This document shows positions 17,470-26,239 of a stretch of DNA of 64,000 nt, piece after piece. The notes under the pieces were generated by a model. That model saw nothing but the letters and a program-made list of their open reading frames with translations. It was not told the origin of the DNA and did not search any database. The stretch lies in IMG/VR virus record IMGVR_UViG_3300009499_000008, positions 15,675 to 79,674 of that record; one strand, 5' to 3'. The stretch is from a virus. The position numbers were made by a program, and so were the translations under genes. How positions within the stretch are numbered: the stretch's first letter is position 1; each line of letters starts with the position of its first letter.

Positions 17470-18074
17470 ACAATATACAACTTTATCACGGTGACTGCTT
17501 AGAAGTGATGAAGATGCTGCCTGATGCCTCTGTGGACGCAGTAATAACTGATCCTCCATATCTACGAAAGTATCTTCCACTATATGGTCTGATGGCGGCA
17601 GAATTACCAAGACTACTCAAACGAGGAGGTAGTTTATTGGCAATAGTGCCCCACTATGCAATGCCAGAAGTTTTAACTATGGTAGGACGGTATCTCAAAT
17701 ATCGCTGGATATGTTGTATGTGGCAGATGGTTGGGAATCATCCGCGTATGGCGATGGGAATAGAAGTAATATGGAAACCTATAGTATGGTGGGTGAATAA
17801 AGCATGGCCGCAGAGACGTGGTTTTGTTCGAGATGGCTTTGAGAATGTACAACCTACAAAGTTATTACATAAATGGGAACAGTCTTTGAGTTGGGCTGAG
17901 TATTGTTTGCGATTTGTACCAGCGGGAGCCGCTGTGATCGATCCTTTTATGGGTAGCGGAACAACTGGCGTGGCCTGCATCCAAGCGGGGCACAACTTTA
18001 TCGGTATTGAGATCGATGAGGGATATTTTAACGTCGCCAAGCAACGCATCGAGGAGGCGCAACGAACATGCTAA
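17466..18074 (+). CDS. DNA N6-adenine/N4-cytosine methyltransferase (beta class)
   Basis: DPPY then DPFMGSGTT, GIEID. Confidence 0.9.
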   Translation: MNNIQLYHGDCLEVMKMLPDASVDAVITDPPYLRKYLPLYGLMAAELPRLLKRGGSLLAIVPHYAMPEVLTMVGRYLKYRWICCMWQMVGNHPRMAMGIEVIWKPIVWWVNKAWPQRRGFVRDGFENVQPTKLLHKWEQSLSWAEYCLRFVPAGAAVIDPFMGSGTTGVACIQAGHNFIGIEIDEGYFNVAKQRIEEAQRTC

Positions 18075-20140
18075 CAACAATCAAAAAACGCGACGGAAGA
18101 GTAGTCACATTCAATCAACAAAAGATAACTAATGCTATTTTCAAAGCTGCACAATCAGTCGGCGGCGATGATATGTCGCTTGCAGTGCATAATTCTAACG
18201 ACGTTCTTCGTGTGCTCAGAGAACGCTTCAACACAAATACGCCTACTGTGGAAGACATCCAAGACGTTGTTGAGGAAATCCTCATCAAAAATGGACACGC
18301 CAAGACTGCTAAGGCATATATTCTATACAGGGACTTACACAGAAAGCTCAGGGATGTCCGCGCATTGATAGATGCCAACGAACTTATCAACGGTTACTTG
18401 GATAGGACCGATTGGAGAGTACAAGAGAACGCTAATATGGGATATTCCTTACAAGGACTCAATAATCATATATTCACTGAAGTAAACCGCACTTATTGGT
18501 TGAATTCTTTGTATCCACGAGAAGCTAGAGACGCACATATCAGTGGTGATTTGCACATCCACGATCTTTATTTGCTCGCGCCATACTGCACAGGATGGGA
18601 TTTAGAGGACTTGCTTATCATGGGCTTTGGTGGTGCTCCTGGTAAGTTAGAGTGCGCTCCTGCAAAACATCTTTCATCTGCTTTAGGACAGGTGGTGAAC
18701 TTTTTATACACAGTTCAAGGTGAGGTAGCTGGAGCAATTGCTTTCTCTAATTTCGACACCTTACTCGCTCCTTTTATTTCTTTTGATAGTTTGAGCAAAC
18801 AAGAGGTGCGACAGCAGCTTCAAGAGTTCATCTTTAATATGAATGTGCCTACACGGGTGGGCTTCCAATCGATATTTTCTAATATCACTTTAGATCTTAT
18901 CGTACCAGAACATCTAAAAGAGGAAAATATAATCATTGGCGGTGAGGCATATGATGAAGTATACGGAGACTTTCAAGCGGAGATGGACTTACTGAATGAG
19001 TGCTTGCTCGAAATTATGTTAGAAGGCGATGCTGCTGGAAAGCCCTTTACTTTCCCTATACCTACAGTGAATATCACCAAAGACTTTGATTGGGACAACC
19101 CACGATATAATCCCCTGTGGGAAATCACTCGAAAGTATGGCATTCCTTATTTCGCCAATTTCGTCAATTCCAACCTCTGCCCTGATGATGTGAGAAGTAT
19201 GTGTTGTCGATTGCAACTTGACATAACCGACCTAATGCGTCGCGCAGGGGGCTTATTTGGTTCAGCCCCTTCAACAGGCTCCATCGGAGTAGTAACGCTA
19301 AATCTTGCTAGAATAGGCTATTTGACCAAAAACAAGGAGGAATTTCTTCAACGAGTCGGCGAACTCATGGACGTTGCCAAAGACAGTCTTTTGACTAAAC
19401 GAAAGATCGTAGAACAATTCACTGAGCAGGGGCTTTATCCCTACTCGAAGCACTACTTAGTTTACACCAAGGAGCGTTTCGGCGGCTGGTGGAGTGGCCA
19501 TTTCAATACTATAGGCTTGTGTGGTATGAACGAAGCTATGTTAAACCTTTTGAAGAGGGGTTTAGTTTCAGCAGAGGCTAGGAGTTTCTCTAAAGAAGTT
19601 TTGGAGTTTATGAATGAGAGACTCTTGCAATATCAAAATGACACAGGGCAATTATTCAACCTCGAAGCCACTCCAGCGGAGAGTACAGCTTATCGCTTCG
19701 CTCTTTTAGATAAAGCAGCCTATCCTGATATAATCACCGCTGGAGAAGATACGCCATATTACACGAATAGCACACAGTTACCAGTGAATGCCACCGACGA
19801 TCTATTTCAGGCACTTGAATGGCAGGATGAAACTTTGCCCTTGTACACAGGTGGAAGTGTCTTTCATGCCTTCTTGGGTGAGCAGATGCCCTCCGCCACC
19901 GCTGTGAAGAGTCTCGTGCAGAAGATAGCCACAAAGTTTAGACTTCCCTATTTTACAATAACTCCGACGTTTTCCATCTGCCCGAACCACGGTTATCTGA
20001 ATGGCGAAAAAGAGGAATGTCCTAACTGTAATGAGAATCCATTGATTTACAGTCGCGTGGTCGGCTATCTGCGGCCTGTGAGTGAATGGAATGCTGGAAA
20101 GGTCAGTGAATACAAAGATAGGAGGGTATTTGAGATATGA
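18068..20140 (+). CDS. nrdD: Anaerobic (class III) ribonucleoside-triphosphate reductase with ATP cone
   Basis: KRDGR ATP cone, SMCCRL, EATPAE, CPNC, YSRVVGYLRPV glycyl-radical loop. Confidence 0.95.
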   Translation: MLTTIKKRDGRVVTFNQQKITNAIFKAAQSVGGDDMSLAVHNSNDVLRVLRERFNTNTPTVEDIQDVVEEILIKNGHAKTAKAYILYRDLHRKLRDVRALIDANELINGYLDRTDWRVQENANMGYSLQGLNNHIFTEVNRTYWLNSLYPREARDAHISGDLHIHDLYLLAPYCTGWDLEDLLIMGFGGAPGKLECAPAKHLSSALGQVVNFLYTVQGEVAGAIAFSNFDTLLAPFISFDSLSKQEVRQQLQEFIFNMNVPTRVGFQSIFSNITLDLIVPEHLKEENIIIGGEAYDEVYGDFQAEMDLLNECLLEIMLEGDAAGKPFTFPIPTVNITKDFDWDNPRYNPLWEITRKYGIPYFANFVNSNLCPDDVRSMCCRLQLDITDLMRRAGGLFGSAPSTGSIGVVTLNLARIGYLTKNKEEFLQRVGELMDVAKDSLLTKRKIVEQFTEQGLYPYSKHYLVYTKERFGGWWSGHFNTIGLCGMNEAMLNLLKRGLVSAEARSFSKEVLEFMNERLLQYQNDTGQLFNLEATPAESTAYRFALLDKAAYPDIITAGEDTPYYTNSTQLPVNATDDLFQALEWQDETLPLYTGGSVFHAFLGEQMPSATAVKSLVQKIATKFRLPYFTITPTFSICPNHGYLNGEKEECPNCNENPLIYSRVVGYLRPVSEWNAGKVSEYKDRRVFEI

Positions 20141-20367
20141 ATCTCTATGAAATTACAACTGGTGGTTGGGGTGAGAGTTATCTGCGAGCCTATGCTTGGG
20201 CAGCGTCTGAGGAGCAAACTCTAAAGATGGGAGAGAAAGAATATGGTATGTCCTTTGATACACCCTTTAGTGATAGACGATTATTAATTAAGATCCGTTT
20301 GCTTTTCAGTGATGATGCTGAACCATTTTGTACACCATTTAGTGATACTGGATTTGACGATGAGTAA
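20137..20367 (+). CDS. Hypothetical protein
   Basis: ATGA overlap. Confidence 0.6.
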   Translation: MNLYEITTGGWGESYLRAYAWAASEEQTLKMGEKEYGMSFDTPFSDRRLLIKIRLLFSDDAEPFCTPFSDTGFDDE

Positions 20368-20407
20368 TGCACCCAAAATAGGGGCAATTGCACCCAAATC
20401 AGGTGCG
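20368..20407. repeat. Tandem pair of 19-bp imperfect palindromes (copies 1-2)
   Basis: TGCACCCAAAATAGGGGCA-AT-TGCACCCAAATCAGGTGCG. Confidence 0.75.
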
Positions 20408-20422
20408 CCCAGAGGAGGAGCG

Positions 20423-20719
20423 ATGAAACTGACTGAGCCACAGAAGCAGGTGCTGAGGACGATGCTGGAGTTTGACAGCATAATCTCTGTGGTTCCTTGG
20501 GGCGGGCGATGGGACATATCGGCGATTCCCGATTTAGAGTATGGACCATTCCGACCGCGTGTCGCGACTCTGCGCGTCCTCAGGCGGCTGGGACTCTTGC
20601 ACCGCGAGCCTATAGGCGGCCTCGAATTTGAATTCTCCCTCGCCCCCAAGGGCCGCGAGATTGCCGAGGAGTTGCAGGATGAGCCTGGAGGCTCTGCCAG
20701 GGGTGTACGAGGTCAATGA
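20423..20719 (+). CDS. Winged-helix-like protein (similar to 11515)
   Basis: LTEPQKQVL, TLRVLRRLGLL, SLAPKGRE. Confidence 0.65.
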   Translation: MKLTEPQKQVLRTMLEFDSIISVVPWGGRWDISAIPDLEYGPFRPRVATLRVLRRLGLLHREPIGGLEFEFSLAPKGREIAEELQDEPGGSARGVRGQ

Positions 20720-20762
20720 GTGCGGGCTTGTCCGACGGGGCAAGCGGATAGGCGGGGCTTGA
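20679..20762 (+). pseudogene. 27-codon NUMOD4-like homing endonuclease remnant
   Basis: GAGGAG SD; LPGVYEVNECGLVRR then early stop. Confidence 0.45.
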
Positions 20763-20780
20763 CAGCGAGAAGGAGGACAC

Positions 20781-21056
20781 ATGCTGAAGGTAGGTGATCG
20801 AGTGAGAATCTGTCTAGGCAGTCATTTCTCTAGGCTACCATCGCGTCTCATTGGGCAGGGGGGAATAATCATATATCTCGAACCGCAGGAATGTGAGTTC
20901 CCAATGCAGATAGTGCATATTGATGGCGAAGGCGAGATTGACTGCTATAAGGATGAACTGGAGCTCGTGCTGGCAGGCGAGGAACAAGAGGAAGCTGCTG
21001 AACGAGCCCAGGCCAAGACTCTGCTGAACGCGCTAGATGAAATCTGGGGCATATGA
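20781..21056 (+). CDS. KOW/SH3-like small protein
   Basis: LKVGDRVRI...G.I...ELEL. Confidence 0.65.
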   Translation: MLKVGDRVRICLGSHFSRLPSRLIGQGGIIIYLEPQECEFPMQIVHIDGEGEIDCYKDELELVLAGEEQEEAAERAQAKTLLNALDEIWGI

Positions 21057-21070
21057 GGCCCCGCGCTAAC

Positions 21071-21110
21071 CGTACCCAAATCGGATACGATTGCACCCAA
21101 AATGGGTACA
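21071..21110. repeat. Tandem pair of 19-bp imperfect palindromes (copies 3-4)
   Basis: CGTACCCAAATCGGATACG-AT-TGCACCCAAAATGGGTACA. Confidence 0.75.
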
Positions 21111-21123
21111 GAAAGGGAAGATT

Positions 21124-22758
21124 ATGACAGGAATTTCAATAATTCAAGGTGATGTTATTGAGGTTCTCAAGGATTATCCAGATGAGTCTTTCACCGCTTG
21201 TTTCTGTGATCCGCCATATGGCCTCAAATTTATGGGTAAAGAATGGGATCACGGTGTTCCAGCAATTCCTTATTGGGCAGAGGTACTACGTGTGCTCAAG
21301 CCTGGCGCAGTGCTCATGGCATTTGGAGGCACGAGAACTTGGCATCGGTTGGGAGTGGCCATTGAGGACGCGGGATTCGAGTTGTTCGATACTATGATGT
21401 GGCTTCATGGACAGGGATTTCCGAAATCTCATAGTATTGGGAAAGCGCTGGACAAGGCGGCTGGCGCGGAACGAGAGGTGATAGGGCAAGCAGATCGCAG
21501 AAGTGGCCCTGGTCGTCATATGGCTGCCTTGGCTGGACATCGTGGCGAGAGTGTCATCCCAAACATCACTGCACCCGCCACCGACGCCGCCAAGATCTGG
21601 GAAGGTTATGGGACTTCCCTTAAGCCCGCCTGGGAGCCAATCCTCCTAGTTCGCAAACCCCGCACCGCGACGTATGCGCAGACTGCGATGGAGCACGGTT
21701 CTTCTGCTCTCAACATCGACGGTTGTAGAATTGCCAGTGCCAAACCCCATGTCATCAATACATGGGATGATGGCGCTAAACCTTTTGGTGATGGTGCAGG
21801 GCATCCCTTTACAGGTCGTCAACAAAGTGGAAGATGGCCAGCGAATTTGATACTTGACGAAGTAGTGGCGGAGATGCTGGATGCACAACAGAAAGGAACC
21901 TCACGGTTTTTCTACTGTGCAAAAAGTTCACGACGAGAAAGAGATGCAGGATTAGAAGAGTTTGACAGTACGGAACAAGTATGCTATGATGAAACTCTAC
22001 CACTAACCGAACAGGAGAGTTTATCATGGGAAAGCACGGGCCTCATTCAAGCCATCCAAGTGGCTACGGATGGACTACAAAGAAGGGCTATCATCGTTTC
22101 TGCCTTTGGAATCCTGCCACCAAAAGTAGTAGACTTGTGCTTGCTCATGTGTATGTTTGGGAGAAAGCCAATGGGTCGATTCCTACAGGCTCTACTTTGC
22201 ATCATATCAACGGCGACAGGCAAGACAATCGCATTGAAAATCTACAACTTGTTACATTCTTGGAGCATAAGCGAATCCACAGCGGATGTGAACTCCGAAA
22301 TGGTGTATGGTGGAAACCATGTAGCATCTGTGGAGAATTCAAACCAATTATCAAAGAACATTGGTACTTCTCCAAAGAAGGTTGGCCTCTCTATGGAAGA
22401 TGTAAACCGTGCCACATCAAAATTGTCGTCATCAAAAAGCGTGCTCGAAAAGCTAGACAAAAGATGCAGACGTAAACCAGCGCACCCAACCATAAAGCCG
22501 CTTGCTCTTTGTAAATATCTAGCCACTCTCATCATCCCACCAGAAGAGTATCGAGACGATGCTAACCTCCTGATCCCCTTCGCTGGTGTAATGAGTGAAG
22601 CAATCGGAGCACTCTTAGCAGGGTGGAGAAATATCACCGCGATTGAACTTGAGAAGGAATATTGTGAGATTGGTCAAAAGCGTATTGATTGGTGGGTTGT
22701 CAAAATAAAAGAAACTGGACTAACCGATCCTAAAGCTATTCTAAAGAGAGGAAGCTGA
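21124..22758 (+). CDS. DNA amino-methyltransferase (beta class) with about 170-aa in-frame insertion
   Basis: DPPY, GFPKS, LKPAWEP, GRWPAN, SRFFYCAK, HPTIKP, IPFAG; insert between AGLEEFD and HPTIKP. Confidence 0.85.
   Translation: MTGISIIQGDVIEVLKDYPDESFTACFCDPPYGLKFMGKEWDHGVPAIPYWAEVLRVLKPGAVLMAFGGTRTWHRLGVAIEDAGFELFDTMMWLHGQGFPKSHSIGKALDKAAGAEREVIGQADRRSGPGRHMAALAGHRGESVIPNITAPATDAAKIWEGYGTSLKPAWEPILLVRKPRTATYAQTAMEHGSSALNIDGCRIASAKPHVINTWDDGAKPFGDGAGHPFTGRQQSGRWPANLILDEVVAEMLDAQQKGTSRFFYCAKSSRRERDAGLEEFDSTEQVCYDETLPLTEQESLSWESTGLIQAIQVATDGLQRRAIIVSAFGILPPKVVDLCLLMCMFGRKPMGRFLQALLCIISTATGKTIALKIYNLLHSWSISESTADVNSEMVYGGNHVASVENSNQLSKNIGTSPKKVGLSMEDVNRATSKLSSSKSVLEKLDKRCRRKPAHPTIKPLALCKYLATLIIPPEEYRDDANLLIPFAGVMSEAIGALLAGWRNITAIELEKEYCEIGQKRIDWWVVKIKETGLTDPKAILKRGS
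21962..21990 (+). promoter_or_regulatory. Intragenic sigma70 promoter TTGACA-17-TATGAT with extended -10 TG
   Basis: 11/12 consensus, 35 bp upstream of the nested HNH ATG. Confidence 0.8.
22026..22475 (+). CDS. HNH endonuclease nested out of frame within the methyltransferase gene
   Basis: AGGAG SD at 22013-22017; HVYVWE..NG.IP....HHINGDRQDNRIENL; C-terminal CxxC...CxxC. Confidence 0.88.
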   Translation: MGKHGPHSSHPSGYGWTTKKGYHRFCLWNPATKSSRLVLAHVYVWEKANGSIPTGSTLHHINGDRQDNRIENLQLVTFLEHKRIHSGCELRNGVWWKPCSICGEFKPIIKEHWYFSKEGWPLYGRCKPCHIKIVVIKKRARKARQKMQT

Positions 22759-23162
22759 TGTTAATCCTAGCACTTGACCCAGGAGAAACCACGGGCTATG
22801 TCGTCGCCGAGATCGATGGACTCGATTACGACATAAAAATCAGTGGGCAATTTCCTAATTGGCAAATGCTTGAGGCGTTGATAACTTACTGGTTGCCAGA
22901 TAGAATCATCTATGAAGCATTTTATCTCTCACCACAGATAGCCAAGTACAAGACTCGAAGCACTCTACCAACTGTGGAAGTCATCGGAGTACTCAAATTT
23001 CTTGCTTGGCAATACTCAACTCCATTAGTAGCCCAGCCGCCATCAGCTAAGGAGCTTGTGTCATTGCCACGTTACATCGCTGGCGTTTCTGGCCCACACG
23101 CTAGAGACGCTCTAAGACATTTGATTGCTTATTTAAGATTAAGAGGAGGAAATCAAACGTGA
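22758..23162 (+). CDS. RuvC-like Holliday junction resolvase
   Basis: ILALDPGETTG, IYE, HARDA. Confidence 0.8.
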   Translation: MLILALDPGETTGYVVAEIDGLDYDIKISGQFPNWQMLEALITYWLPDRIIYEAFYLSPQIAKYKTRSTLPTVEVIGVLKFLAWQYSTPLVAQPPSAKELVSLPRYIAGVSGPHARDALRHLIAYLRLRGGNQT

Positions 23163-23371
23163 AATGCCAAAATTTTAGCCGTTATAAACGTAGATTCTTT
23201 TCTCAGCGTTGCAAAGGATCGGCGAGGGTGACACTCACTTTAGAATGTCGTGAGGAAGAGAAAATAGTTTTGGAGCTTTGCAACGCCTGCGCATATGCAA
23301 TTGCTAAAGATGCTCTAGGACTTGGATGGAGTGCGAATTTGAAAAGGGTGCATAGAGAGGAGGCCAAATGA
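23159..23371 (+). CDS. Small Cys-containing protein
   Basis: GGAGG SD; LCNAC. Confidence 0.6.
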   Translation: MKCQNFSRYKRRFFSQRCKGSARVTLTLECREEEKIVLELCNACAYAIAKDALGLGWSANLKRVHREEAK

Positions 23372-24210
23372 AAATCGTTAGCTATTCGCAGCTTCGTAGT
23401 CTCACTCGTTGTCGGTGGCAATGGGGTATAAGATATTTAAAGAGGCTTTACTCAAAAGAGCAAAAGGATTATATGGGTATTGGCAAGCTCGTCCACAATG
23501 CCCTAGCGCAATTTTACGGACTTGGAGAAATCAATTGGGAAGTGCTTCGTTCTGAGTTTATGGGAGATTTAAGACCAGAAATACTTGCTGAAAGTAAACG
23601 GGTTGTAGCTGCTTATTTAGTAAGCGGTAAGGCAGAATTTCCTGGTCGGATTTTGGGAGTGGAATTCCCCTTTCAAGTTAGACTTCCCTTCGATGTAATC
23701 CTAGTGGGTTGGATTGACCTGATAACTAAGATAGATGGTAAGATTTGGCTCTGGGATCATAAGACGTCTTCTAGGATGACTAAGCAAATTACCCATCCTG
23801 AGAGAGATCAGCTATCTCTTTATGCTTGGAGTTTGATGAAGCTGGGCGCTCCTATAGGCGGCTTCGGCGTAAACCGTCTTATTTATACGAAAAAGCCAAA
23901 TTTTGCTAGGTTTTCTGAGGAGGTGAGTGATGCTGGCTTGGCTCTGCGAAGCAAGAATTTTATGGCTAGTTATAAGGCGCTCCCATCAGAAGATATTATA
24001 ATGATCGATCTTCCGAGATCTTTTCAGAACGACTGTGATTTTCGCTGTGACTATAAAGAGTTATGTAAACTCGATCTTTATGGTAAAACAGGGGAACTAC
24101 ATCGATTAATTGCTGAGGAATTTCGCTACTCTGAACGCGGTGATACTGCGGCATATCTGGAGAAATACAATACTGAGTTGCCTGCGTGGTGGTTGGAAGA
24201 GGAGGAATGA
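23368..24210 (+). CDS. PD-(D/E)XK Cas4/RecB-like exonuclease
   Basis: SYSQL...C, G..VH, GWID, DHKT, QL..Y, C...C.Y..LC. Confidence 0.85.
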   Translation: MKIVSYSQLRSLTRCRWQWGIRYLKRLYSKEQKDYMGIGKLVHNALAQFYGLGEINWEVLRSEFMGDLRPEILAESKRVVAAYLVSGKAEFPGRILGVEFPFQVRLPFDVILVGWIDLITKIDGKIWLWDHKTSSRMTKQITHPERDQLSLYAWSLMKLGAPIGGFGVNRLIYTKKPNFARFSEEVSDAGLALRSKNFMASYKALPSEDIIMIDLPRSFQNDCDFRCDYKELCKLDLYGKTGELHRLIAEEFRYSERGDTAAYLEKYNTELPAWWLEEEE

Positions 24211-24539
24211 TGAAGACTTGGTTTGAGTTGCTTCGGGCGACATTCTGGCATGGATTCATGTTTAGTCTATTGAAGCCAAAAGCTACGACGAAACTGGGTG
24301 GGCTTTTAGGCTATATCGGTCGTGATTTGGTCAGCAAGGCGGCAGTAGATGCTGATTCCTTGCTCAAGCATGTTCTGCTGGCCTATCTCTGTGATTTGGA
24401 AAGCCATCGGTGTTTTGGGAAGACTATCACTGGGGCTACTTGGATACGTGCACCAAAGGGCGGACCATATCCCAAGGAACTACCACACGCATTGCAGTGG
24501 ATGGCGAATCGTGGAGCTAGTATCACGCCAATAGTATAG
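24207..24539 (+). CDS. Panacea/SocA (DUF4065)-like protein
   Basis: LLK.VLLAYLCDLE....FGKTITG..W....GGPYP. Confidence 0.55.
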   Translation: MMKTWFELLRATFWHGFMFSLLKPKATTKLGGLLGYIGRDLVSKAAVDADSLLKHVLLAYLCDLESHRCFGKTITGATWIRAPKGGPYPKELPHALQWMANRGASITPIV

Positions 24540-24544
24540 AGATT

Positions 24545-26239
24545 ATGATTAAGCTTCTTCCTAAAACCAATAAATACACACCGAAGTTATTTGTATTCGG
24601 CGCAGCCGCTGCTCCGACGTGGCGAATGCTTGAGGGAATCACAGGTGTGAAAAAATGCCCCACAGGGATAGTCCTTCCTCTCAATGCCCGATTATGTGAG
24701 CTTGTGTACTGGACGACCAAAAGCCCTCTCGATCCAGGTGTACAGGCATGGTACAAAGAAACCATTGCTGAGGAGAATCGAAAAATACAACTCTTACTTA
24801 GGGAAGACGCTTCCCTGCATCATCCGAATGCTAATCGCCTGTGGCCATTCCAGAGAGTTTCTGCTGATTTCATCGTTAAGACGAAACGCGCTCTCTTAGC
24901 ATCCGACATGGGCGTTGGAAAGACGGCAACAACCATCATAGCTGTTGAAGAGAGTACACAAAATGACAAAGTATTAGTAATCTGTCCAAATTCGTTGAAG
25001 ACTTGGTGGAAGAAGGAAAAACAAGCATGGACTGCTTTCCCTAATCAGCCAATTACTATAGTCGAGACGAAGACGCGGAGAGATATACTTTCTGTATATA
25101 GTGATGGCTGGCTCATTGGTAATTATGCACAGGTGAGAGCCGAGGCTAAGTCCATCAGTCAGCAAAGCATTTATTCAGGATCTAAACAGTTTAATATCAA
25201 TATCCTTAGAGAACGATCTCTTTACTTCTCGACTGAGTGGGACTGGCTCATCCTCGACGAAGCGCAGACTATCCGAAATAGAAAGACGCAAATCGCCTAC
25301 TTGACAAAGCAACTGAAATTCAAGAATTGCTGTCTTCTCACAGGTACACCTTTTGGCAATGATCCATCAGAGTTATGGTCACTCCTAAATTTCATCAATC
25401 CAAAAAAGTATACCAGCTTCTGGCGCTTCTTTGAATTATACGTTGATTACGACCAAGATTATTGGGGCACTAGACACATCAAAGGTGTAAAGCGTCCTAA
25501 ATTATTGCGGAGAGAGCTGGCTCCTAGAATGATTCGTAAGACGAAAGCGGAAGTGATGCCTTTCTTGCCTGAAAAGCTCTATCAAACTATCCCCCTTGAA
25601 TTATTACCTCGGCAAAATAAGCACTACGACGATATGGCAAAGAAGTTCTATATTGAGCTTTCAGAGACGAAGAAACTTTACGCCGTGAACGTCATTTCGA
25701 TGATCACACGCCTTCGACAAATTCTAAGTACTCCAGCAAATTTCGACTTGCCCGACGAAAGCGTCAAGCTCGACGCCGCATTAGATATTATCCTCGGCAC
25801 AGATAATAGAATTGTTATATTCACAGCCTTTAGAAAAACTGTAGAAGCCCTGTGTAAACGGTTAACTAAGAATAAGATCTCCCACACAAAAATATGGGGC
25901 GGGATGACCTCTGAGCAAGTGAGCCAAGCGGAGGCAGAGCTGAACGCTGGTGAAATCAAAGTTTTAGTAGCAACTTTGCAGGCTGGTGGTGTGGGGCTTA
26001 ACTTAGTCGGGGCGAATGTAGCTATCTTCGTAGATCGCCACTATAATCCAGAAAAACAGAGACAAGCAGAAGATAGACTACACCGTGGCGGACAAACACA
26101 AAAAGTACACATAATCAATCTTTATTGCTCAAATACTGTAGACGACATGGTGGAAGCAATTTTGAGTAGAAAAATCAGTATGCAAACGGCTGTGTTAGGT
26201 CCAGCGTTTTTAGAAGACTTGAAAAGGAGATTAAAATGA
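24545..26239 (+). CDS. SNF2-family helicase
   Basis: DMGVGKT, DEAQ, LTGTP, GVGLNL, QAEDRLHRGGQ. Confidence 0.92.
   Translation: MIKLLPKTNKYTPKLFVFGAAAAPTWRMLEGITGVKKCPTGIVLPLNARLCELVYWTTKSPLDPGVQAWYKETIAEENRKIQLLLREDASLHHPNANRLWPFQRVSADFIVKTKRALLASDMGVGKTATTIIAVEESTQNDKVLVICPNSLKTWWKKEKQAWTAFPNQPITIVETKTRRDILSVYSDGWLIGNYAQVRAEAKSISQQSIYSGSKQFNINILRERSLYFSTEWDWLILDEAQTIRNRKTQIAYLTKQLKFKNCCLLTGTPFGNDPSELWSLLNFINPKKYTSFWRFFELYVDYDQDYWGTRHIKGVKRPKLLRRELAPRMIRKTKAEVMPFLPEKLYQTIPLELLPRQNKHYDDMAKKFYIELSETKKLYAVNVISMITRLRQILSTPANFDLPDESVKLDAALDIILGTDNRIVIFTAFRKTVEALCKRLTKNKISHTKIWGGMTSEQVSQAEAELNAGEIKVLVATLQAGGVGLNLVGANVAIFVDRHYNPEKQRQAEDRLHRGGQTQKVHIINLYCSNTVDDMVEAILSRKISMQTAVLGPAFLEDLKRRLK

What the first reader, a model, noticed from the sequence alone, without database searches (positions are those of the whole stretch)
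21960..22500. Self-expressing HNH endonuclease hidden out of frame inside an uninterrupted DNA methyltransferase gene (candidate splicing-free homing element)
Seen: a near-consensus promoter (TTGACA 21962, 17 bp, TG-n-TATGAT 21985), an AGGAG SD (22013) and a complete 149-aa HNH plus Zn-finger ORF (22026-22475) lie wholly inside the MTase CDS, in the -1 frame. The MTase frame has no stop across all 150 overlapped codons; with uniform base use that is roughly (61/64)^150, under 1e-3. The HNH often uses ATT/ATC/GTC codons that avoid stops in the host frame (ATT GTC GTC ATC AAA at 22422). The insert fills the segment between SRFFYCAK...AGLEEFD and HPTIKP, and the HNH stop is 7 nt before the His codon. 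Established: homing endonucleases normally spare their host gene by being in an intron, in an intein or free-standing. Here there is no room for intron core helices and no intein terminus. Inference: the element spares its host by being read through as a dispensable loop of about 170 aa while expressing itself from another frame.
Basis: partly seen in the sequence, partly recalled or inferred. Interest (0 to 1): 0.92.

Follow-up and report, generated by a model that had tools for sequence, protein, structure and literature searches.

The report
Hidden HNH gene inside phage methylase
A selfish HNH nuclease gene with its own promoter sits in a shifted reading frame inside a phage DNA methyltransferase gene, which is translated straight through it without splicing; this design was first published in 2025, and this is a new, widespread lineage of it.

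Summary
A 149-aa HNH_3 plus zinc-ribbon ORF (22026-22475) lies in the -1 frame inside an unbroken 544-aa PF01555 methyltransferase ORF (21124-22758). It is preceded by TTGACA-17-TATGAT and an AGGAG Shine-Dalgarno (SD) site.

- All 17 non-redundant nested relatives keep the host frame stop-free. All 8 free-standing relatives carry 1-10 stops in that frame.
- dN/dS is 0.05-0.22 in the HNH frame and about 1 in the host frame over the same bases.
- The methyltransferase segment downstream of the insert is still under purifying selection (0.10-0.23).
- The HNH is more conserved than its hosts, which indicates horizontal movement.
- Promoter and SD are conserved across elements.
- No intron (Rfam) or intein (Pfam) signal was found. 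AlphaFold2 gives the insert pLDDT below 50 and the HNH 89.

The design is already published as the ShiLan domain (Arsenault, Gosselin and Gogarten 2025, PMC11855218). This scan has also reported it on other DNA (e1-4365169, e1-3550319).

This element differs from ShiLan in:
- HNH family
- insertion site
- frame offset
- its canonical promoter and SD

Expression, read-through at the protein level and homing are inferred. None has been tested.

The parts
21124..22758 (+). Host DNA methyltransferase ORF (544 aa), uninterrupted. Its TGA stop overlaps the ATG of the next ORF at 22758.
   Evidence: Pfam N6_N4_Mtase E=3.7e-10 spanning residues 25-518. It is 72-79% identical to insert-less homologues P0001-P0010.
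21124..21960 (+). MTase N-terminal part: DPPY catalytic motif at 21208-21219, target-recognition region, and the RFFYCAK...ERDAGLEE segment.
   Evidence: Alignment A1. AlphaFold2 core pLDDT is 85-97.
21961..22482 (+). Inserted element, about 522 nt or 174 host codons (F280-A453). The boundaries are uncertain by a few bases because both ends overlap host-type codons.
   Evidence: Absent from most homologues, where the loop is 4-60 aa. The host-frame translation matches no Pfam family and has pLDDT below 50 over residues 279-455.
21962..21990 (+). Sigma-70-type promoter: -35 TTGACA (21962-21967), 17-nt spacer, TG-extended -10 TATGAT (21985-21990).
   Evidence: 11 of 12 matches plus TG. TTGACn-17-TATAAT is conserved at the same place in 8-10 related elements, with the -10 A2 and T6 positions invariant. 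A relative in run X2 has G>A at 21988, which gives TATAAT.
22013..22017 (+). Shine-Dalgarno AGGAG, 8 nt upstream of the HNH ATG.
   Evidence: GGAGG or AGGAG lies 6-9 nt before the start codon in L016, L046, L047, L048, L052, L054, L055, L061, L041 and L042.
22026..22475 (+). HNH homing-endonuclease gene (149 aa): HNH_3 core (His59, His60, Asn68, Asn72, His81, His85) plus a C-terminal CxxC...CxxC zinc ribbon (Cys99, 102, 126, 129).
   Evidence: Pfam HNH_3 E=7e-17. The listed residues are invariant in 16 relatives. dN/dS is 0.05-0.22. AlphaFold2 mean pLDDT is 89, and the best solved match is I-HmuI 1u3e (E=3.5e-3, prob 1.00).
22483..22758 (+). MTase C-terminal part (HPTIKP motif and the SAM-binding region). 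It has no start codon of its own nearby and can only be made by reading through the insert.
   Evidence: pLDDT is 86-94. The equivalent part in other invaded alleles has dN/dS 0.10-0.23.

Best explanation
This is a compact mobile cassette made of promoter, SD and HNH gene, inserted in the variable loop between the ER-x-AGL segment and the HPTxKP motif of a phage beta-class N6/N4 DNA methyltransferase.

The cassette expresses an I-HmuI-like HNH_3 homing endonuclease from its own start in the -1 frame. Ribosomes translating the methyltransferase read straight through the same DNA in the host frame. This adds a loop of about 174 aa with an unconstrained sequence and no confidently predicted structure, and then goes on to make the essential C-terminal SAM-binding domain. 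Selection removes stop codons from the host frame but does not otherwise constrain it. No RNA or protein splicing is involved.

The nuclease presumably cuts insert-free alleles near the conserved HPTVKP-coding sequence, and repair then copies the cassette in (homing).

Shown here from sequence: the architecture, selection in each frame, the conserved expression signals, the patchy distribution, and the HNH being more conserved than its hosts.
Inferred: transcription from the internal promoter, a full-length active methyltransferase, and the cleavage specificity.
For: 1. Stop-free host frame. In loci found by searching the HNH frame only, all 17 nested clusters (90% identity) have 0 host-frame stops and 2-20 stops in the third frame. 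The 8 free-standing relatives have 1-10 stops in the equivalent frame. One of them, L056, is over 60% identical to nested ones.
2. Selection by frame. dN/dS is 0.05-0.22 in the HNH frame and 0.7-2.7 in the host frame over the same nucleotides.
3. Downstream domain. The MTase C-terminal part in invaded alleles has dN/dS 0.10-0.23. The window's C-terminal part has no nearby start codon of its own.
4. Movement. HNH identity exceeds host identity: 97% against 55% for L048/L061, and 78% against 42-52% for window/L016. Most homologues lack the insert.
5. Expression signals. TTGACn-17-TATAAT and GGAGG are conserved across elements.
6. No splicing apparatus. Rfam at E up to 10 finds no intron. Only about 65 nt lie 5' and 7 nt lie 3' of the ORF. 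The host-frame insert matches no Hint or intein family. In L018 and L051 the HNH stop lies inside the V-K codons of HPTVKP, so the ORF is not confined to a removable insert.
7. Structure. AlphaFold2 gives the MTase core pLDDT 85-97, the insert below 50 and the HNH 89.
8. Precedent. The same logic is published for the ShiLan domain (PMC11855218).
Against: - There are no expression data. No RNA run holds this sequence.
- For the window alone the statistic is modest. P(open) is 3e-3 with phage codon usage, and only 0.15 if the ORF's own, already biased, codon usage is used. The strength comes from the comparison.
- The host bacterium is unknown, so the sigma-70 reading of the promoter is an assumption.
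- A 174-aa loop containing a hydrophobic stretch could impair the enzyme. Activity of the full-length MTase is untested.
- Rfam can only exclude known intron families.
Confidence: 0.8

Rival explanations
1. The host frame is kept open to preserve uninterrupted translation, not methyltransferase activity. The benefit would be avoiding polarity and keeping translational coupling to the downstream gene. The full-length protein could then be inactive or dispensable.
For: The MTase TGA (22756-22758) overlaps the ATG of the next ORF (22758), the usual arrangement for coupling. The ShiLan authors note that this methylase is not essential in related phages.
Against: The C-terminal MTase part of invaded alleles is under clear purifying selection at the protein level (dN/dS 0.10-0.23). 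It keeps the HPTxKP and SAM-binding motifs. Mere ribosome transit would not require this.
Confidence: 0.1
2. The insert is removed from the mRNA by an unrecognised, very compact or ORF-overlapping self-splicing intron, and the open host frame is incidental.
For: HNH genes are common in phage group I introns. Rfam only knows described families. Another element at the same site (L164) does break the host frame and may be intron-borne or a split gene.
Against: No Rfam hit at E up to 10. Only about 65 nt plus 7 nt lie outside the ORF. An intron would not need an open host frame, yet 17 of 17 lineages keep one. In some lineages the HNH ORF runs into the host's HPTVKP codons.
Confidence: 0.05
3. The insert is an atypical intein that is spliced out of the protein.
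For: The same HNH clade does sit out of frame inside true inteins in other hosts: L041/L042 in a ParB-methyltransferase at HP|T.KP, and L062/L064/L069/L084 in another host.
Against: The window's host-frame insert has no Hint or intein Pfam match. It has no N-terminal Cys/Ser block, no C-terminal His-Asn and no following Cys/Ser/Thr. Only about 25 host codons lie outside the HNH overlap. The host-frame sequence evolves neutrally.
Confidence: 0.02
4. The open frame is chance, or the methyltransferase is a recently disrupted pseudogene.
For: For this one locus, P(open) is only 3e-3 to 0.15, depending on the null model.
Against: 17 of 17 nested lineages are open against 0 of 8 free-standing relatives, at HNH divergence down to about 40% identity. 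The C-terminal domain is under purifying selection.
Confidence: 0.02

Closest known systems
ShiLan domain: hidden out-of-frame HNH endonuclease in mycobacteriophage DNA methylases (Gosselin et al. 2023, PMC9957025; Arsenault, Gosselin and Gogarten 2025, PMC11855218). It is annotated in phage Applejack as gp54/gp55 (PMC12613952).
   Same: - Same host gene family: the window MTase is 39-47% identical to Applejack gp54.
- A same-strand HNH ORF lies wholly inside the MTase ORF in another frame.
- The host frame is stop-free.
- No intron or intein is detectable.
- The stop codon lies at the very end of the insert.
- The host-frame insert is predicted with low confidence.
- I-HmuI is the best structural match.
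- The distribution is patchy, as expected for homing.
   Different: - The HNH family is unrelated: HNH_3 of 149 aa here, against a classical HNH of about 195-209 aa with flanking zinc fingers (blastp E=0.1).
- The insertion site differs: before HPTxKP here, after GSGFPKS in Applejack.
- The frame offset differs: +2 here, +1 in the Applejack annotation.
- This element has a near-consensus promoter and an SD. The ShiLan authors found no RBS and proposed leaderless GTG initiation.
- The phage here is an uncultured one from a subsurface metagenome, not an actinophage.
Pacc40 gp60 insertion: a second hidden nuclease ORF in a divergent actinophage methylase, with free-standing relatives beside methylase genes in phages Sashimi and Tiff81 (PMC11855218, section 3.6).
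   Same: Nested and free-standing members of one nuclease clade are both associated with methylase genes. Here the free-standing relatives L001, L056 and L059 abut MTase genes.
   Different: Different host MTase family, different site and different nuclease clade. No sequence comparison with Pacc40 was made here.
[quoted passage not shown]
   Same: A homing nuclease is encoded in frame 3 relative to a host-frame polypeptide that must stay open. Relatives of the window's HNH occur in this arrangement in L041/L042 and in L062/L064/L069/L084.
   Different: In those cases the read-through peptide is removed by intein splicing. The window has no intein. The nuclease family also differs (HNH_3, not endonuclease VII-like).
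Free-standing homing endonuclease genes of T-even phages (seg and mob genes), including mobE, which splits nrdA in Aeromonas phage Aeh1 into two genes. This comparison is from my own recollection of Friedrich et al. 2007 and was not checked here.
   Same: An intron-less, intein-less homing nuclease gene with its own expression signals, inserted in or next to a conserved phage gene.
   Different: Those genes either sit between host genes or break the host gene into separately translated pieces. Here the host ORF stays continuous.

Membership tests
Hidden out-of-frame HNH insertion in a phage DNA methylase (ShiLan-type architecture) | A complete HNH ORF on the same strand, wholly inside the methylase ORF, in a different frame. 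| tested here: met
Hidden out-of-frame HNH insertion in a phage DNA methylase (ShiLan-type architecture) | The host frame has no stop across the insert, beyond what chance would give. | tested here: met
   P(open)=3e-3 for the window. 17 of 17 nested lineages are open, against 0 of 8 free-standing relatives.
Hidden out-of-frame HNH insertion in a phage DNA methylase (ShiLan-type architecture) | No detectable self-splicing intron or intein. | tested here: met
   Rfam finds none at E up to 10. Pfam finds no Hint or intein in the host frame. Unknown intron types cannot be excluded.
Hidden out-of-frame HNH insertion in a phage DNA methylase (ShiLan-type architecture) | Patchy presence among homologous methylases, with the element more conserved than its host (mobility). 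| tested here: met
ShiLan domain proper (homology to the published element) | The same HNH lineage and the same insertion site as in ShiLan or Applejack. | tested here: not met
   blastp E=0.1 between the two HNH proteins. The insertion sites are about 170 host residues apart.
Pfam HNH_3 (PF13392) His-Me finger endonuclease | A profile match above the curated cut-off, with the catalytic His, Asn and His residues conserved. | tested here: met
   61.2 bits against a cut-off of 24.8. H59, H60, N68, N72, H81 and H85 are invariant. The best fold match is I-HmuI.
Pfam N6_N4_Mtase (PF01555), beta-class DNA methyltransferase | A profile match, with the DPPY motif N-terminal and the HPTxKP plus SAM-binding region C-terminal. 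| tested here: met
   40.6 bits against a cut-off of 26.7, covering profile positions 3-220. Motifs are seen in alignment A1.
Group I intron carrying an HNH ORF | A conserved catalytic RNA core (P3-P9) flanking or overlapping the ORF. | tested here: not met
   No Rfam match. Only about 65 nt plus 7 nt of non-ORF sequence are available.
Intein | N- and C-terminal Hint splicing blocks, a terminal His-Asn, and a nucleophile at +1. | tested here: not met
   No Hint match. The insert ends ...RKPA|HPT.
Active homing endonuclease | Site-specific cleavage of the insert-free allele, and copying of the element into it. | not testable with these tools
   Only indirect support: the HNH is more conserved than its hosts and its distribution is patchy.

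The most novel reading that the evidence does not exclude
One HNH_3 clade occupies three life-styles around DNA methyltransferase genes: free-standing beside them, nested bare in the -1 frame, and nested in the -1 frame inside inteins. In the bare form both ends are built from host codons. The -35 box sits on the conserved G-L-D codons, and the stop codon sits inside the His-Ser or Val-Lys codons of HPTVKP. If these forms are evolutionary steps of one lineage, the clade documents how a free-standing homing gene enters a coding sequence. It would also show how inteins gain or lose endonucleases, with read-through loops as the intermediate stage.
Probability: 0.3. Interest if true: 0.65.

Novelty: new member of a known kind. 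Interest (0 to 1): 0.45.

Why it matters
Homing endonuclease genes were long thought to survive inside essential or useful genes only by hiding in introns or inteins. Read-through of an out-of-frame insert is a third strategy, and it has so far been described only for actinophage methylases.

This lineage adds three things.
- The strategy is widespread in uncultured phages and arose with an unrelated HNH family at another site of the same enzyme.
- It comes with quantitative evidence that selection acts only to keep the host frame open, and with canonical expression signals. This gives a simpler answer than leaderless initiation to the published open question of how such hidden genes are translated.
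- Gene callers miss these nested ORFs, so they are under-annotated.

Tried and rejected
DNA for P0013, P0055 and P0076 could not be fetched, so their inserts are known only from the host-frame protein alignment.
- Megablast of 18000-26000 against cultured phages found nothing.
- tblastn of the HNH against cultured phages found only distant free-standing HNH genes and no nested relative.
- Mycobacterium phage Lilac gp101 looked like a candidate from its length. It carries only a LAGLIDADG intein.
- No RNA holder is listed for this sequence, so expression could not be examined.
- Laying contigs of runs X1 and X2 gave three things. X1 is probably the source sample. X2 holds a 92%-identical contig spanning both junctions, much deeper cover on the flanks than on the insert, and one contig joining 21888 to 22489. 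Contig depths sum over organisms and the joint is imprecise, so this is only a hint of insert-free relatives.
- A profile search of PDB sequences with the HNH alignment found nothing at E of 0.01 or better.
- A null model using the ORF's own codon usage gives P(open)=0.15. I set it aside because that usage is itself shaped by stop avoidance.

Full report
**What is there**

The window is part of a complete 79.7-kb uncultured virus genome with terminal repeats. The genome was apparently assembled from a subsurface metagenome.

An ORF at 21124-22758 encodes a 544-aa PF01555 N6/N4 DNA methyltransferase (MTase) with no internal stop. Inside it, shifted one base back, a 149-aa ORF at 22026-22475 matches Pfam HNH_3 (E=7e-17). 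It ends with a CxxC...CxxC zinc ribbon.

- TTGACA at 21962, a 17-nt spacer, then TG-n-TATGAT at 21985. This is the best promoter-like site in 3 kb.
- AGGAG at 22013, 8 nt before the ATG.
- A TAA stop that ends 7 nt before the His codon of HPTIKP.

Neighbouring genes are NrdD upstream, and a PD-(D/E)XK nuclease and an SNF2 helicase downstream.

**Is the open host frame more than chance?**

I held the HNH protein fixed and drew synonymous codons from this phage's own usage. This predicts 4.7 host-frame stops and a probability of 3e-3 of having none. Uniform synonymous choice gives 1.7e-3.

None of 893 149-codon windows from the phage's other long ORFs has an open +1 frame.

NTA/NTG codons, the only ones that can create a host-frame stop, are depleted: 8 of 28 against 54% phage-wide (p=0.006). 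Each one that remains is followed by a safe base.

With the ORF's own codon usage as the null, the probability is only 0.15. The single-locus case is therefore suggestive, not decisive.

**Comparative evidence**

Most homologous MTases have only 4-60 residues between the AKAS..ER segment and HPTVKP, so this is a naturally variable loop.

I searched IMG/VR with the HNH frame only, which is unbiased with respect to the host frame.
- It returned 17 non-redundant nested relatives (90% clustering).
- In every one, the frame one base forward of the HNH is open across the whole HNH and belongs to a 435-996-aa ORF.
- In every one, the third frame has 2-20 stops.
- Eight free-standing relatives have 1-10 stops in the equivalent frame. 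One of them, L056, is over 60% identical to nested ones.

Selection differs sharply between the frames.
- dN/dS is 0.05-0.22 in the HNH frame.
- dN/dS is 0.7-2.7 in the host frame over the same nucleotides.
- The host-frame peptide therefore drifts freely and only its openness is maintained.
- The MTase segment downstream of the insert in invaded alleles has dN/dS 0.10-0.23. It is still translated and useful. In the window it has no start codon of its own.

The HNH is much more conserved than its hosts. The figures are 97% against 55% for L048/L061, and 78% against 42-52% for the window and L016. This indicates horizontal movement between diverged MTase alleles.

**Expression signals**

The roughly 65 nt upstream of the HNH start are not under HNH coding constraint. 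Even so, TTGACn-17-TATAAT and a GGAGG-type SD are conserved in register across 8-10 elements, and the critical -10 positions A2 and T6 are invariant. A 92%-identical relative in another metagenome has TATAAT exactly.

Both ends of the element are built on host codons.
- The -35 box lies on the host's G-L-D codons.
- In several lineages the HNH stop lies inside host codons. In L018 and L051 a TAA lies within the Val-Lys codons of HPTVKP. In five others a TAG lies within His-Ser codons, which explains why invaded alleles read HSTVKP.

**No splicing apparatus**

- Rfam at E up to 10 finds no intron.
- The host-frame insert matches no Pfam family, Hint included.
- AlphaFold2 models the MTase core at pLDDT 85-97 and the C-terminal domain at 86-94. 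Residues 279-455, the insert, fall below 50.
- The HNH frame folds confidently (mean pLDDT 89), and its best solved match is the homing endonuclease I-HmuI.

**Relation to what is known**

This architecture is published. The ShiLan domain of mycobacteriophage methylases was recognised in 2025 as an out-of-frame HNH that the methylase reads through, with no intron or intein detectable (PMC11855218). It is now annotated in phage Applejack (PMC12613952).

The window's MTase belongs to the same family as Applejack gp54 (39-47% identity). The elements differ in four respects:
- The HNH proteins are unrelated (blastp E=0.1).
- The insertion sites are about 170 residues apart.
- The frame offset differs.
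- This lineage has a canonical promoter and SD. The ShiLan authors found no RBS and proposed leaderless initiation.

Out-of-frame nucleases inside inteins are also reported, for an endonuclease VII-like family (bioRxiv 10.1101/2025.01.02.630785).

Earlier notes of this scan describe the same kind on other genomes. I found the paper independently before reading them.

**Wider picture**

The same HNH_3 clade occurs in three settings:
- free-standing next to MTase genes (L001, L056, L059);
- bare-nested in several PF01555 subfamilies, including a high-GC one (L040);
- nested in the -1 frame inside true inteins. L041/L042 are in a ParB-MTase at HP|T.KP, and L062/L064/L069/L084 are in another host. 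Hint domains are confirmed.

A different nuclease (DUF559/Vsr-like) occupies the same MTase site in L164, and there it breaks the host frame. The site is a hot spot for homing elements.

**Verdict**

It is a new lineage of a kind published in 2025, not a new principle. Transcription from the internal promoter, the full-length active MTase and the homing activity remain untested.

Noticed in passing
L164:3100-4214: At the same MTase site (after ...ERNKGLEG) the host frame hits a stop. A 245-aa DUF559/Vsr-like endonuclease ORF with zinc-finger repeats follows, and the HPTVKP C-terminal part resumes in another frame. This is a different homing element that does break the gene, either as a split gene or as an intron.
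   Followed up: partly
L041:1164-3200, L042:1146-3218, L062:324-3311, L069:1782-3308, L084:1-726: Relatives of the window's HNH lie in the -1 frame inside true inteins, with Cys-start Hint blocks and a ...HN|T or ...DN|C end. These inteins sit in a ParB-methyltransferase and in a second, terminase-like host. [quoted passage not shown]
   Followed up: partly
L051:78-2237: One MTase carries two elements. An in-frame LAGLIDADG domain (Pfam E=3e-6) lies near the N-terminus with no obvious intein blocks, and the nested out-of-frame HNH lies before NSHNTVKP.
   Followed up: no
window 21968-21984, and the same place in L018, L045-L048, L052, L061: The 17-nt spacer between the -35 and -10 boxes is partly palindromic in many elements (for example GTTATCTAAC and GTACATGTAC). 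It could be an operator for autoregulation, or part of the nuclease's recognition site.
   Followed up: no
L045, L046, L047, L052, L054 3' junctions: Invaded alleles read HSTVKP or HATVKP, not HPTVKP, because the HNH TAG or TAA stop overlaps the His-Ser or neighbouring codons. This parallels the Pro-to-Thr/Ser change at the ShiLan insertion site reported in PMC11855218.
   Followed up: partly
P0048 and P0007 (alignment A1): P0048 has a different insert of about 190 aa, flanked by a degenerate duplicate of the RFFY..AKAS motif. P0007 has an extra segment of about 90 aa after DKMAG, near the site used by the ShiLan domain. No DNA was available to check their other frames.
   Followed up: no
window 22756-22760: The MTase TGA stop overlaps the ATG of the next ORF (22758-23162, no Pfam match). 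This suggests translational coupling, which is the basis of the polarity rival.
   Followed up: partly
L124/L125:3318-3527: In another homologue the MTase frame ends early, after ...LAGWLDENA. A cysteine-rich ORF starts there, so a further inserted element may lie at a third site.
   Followed up: no
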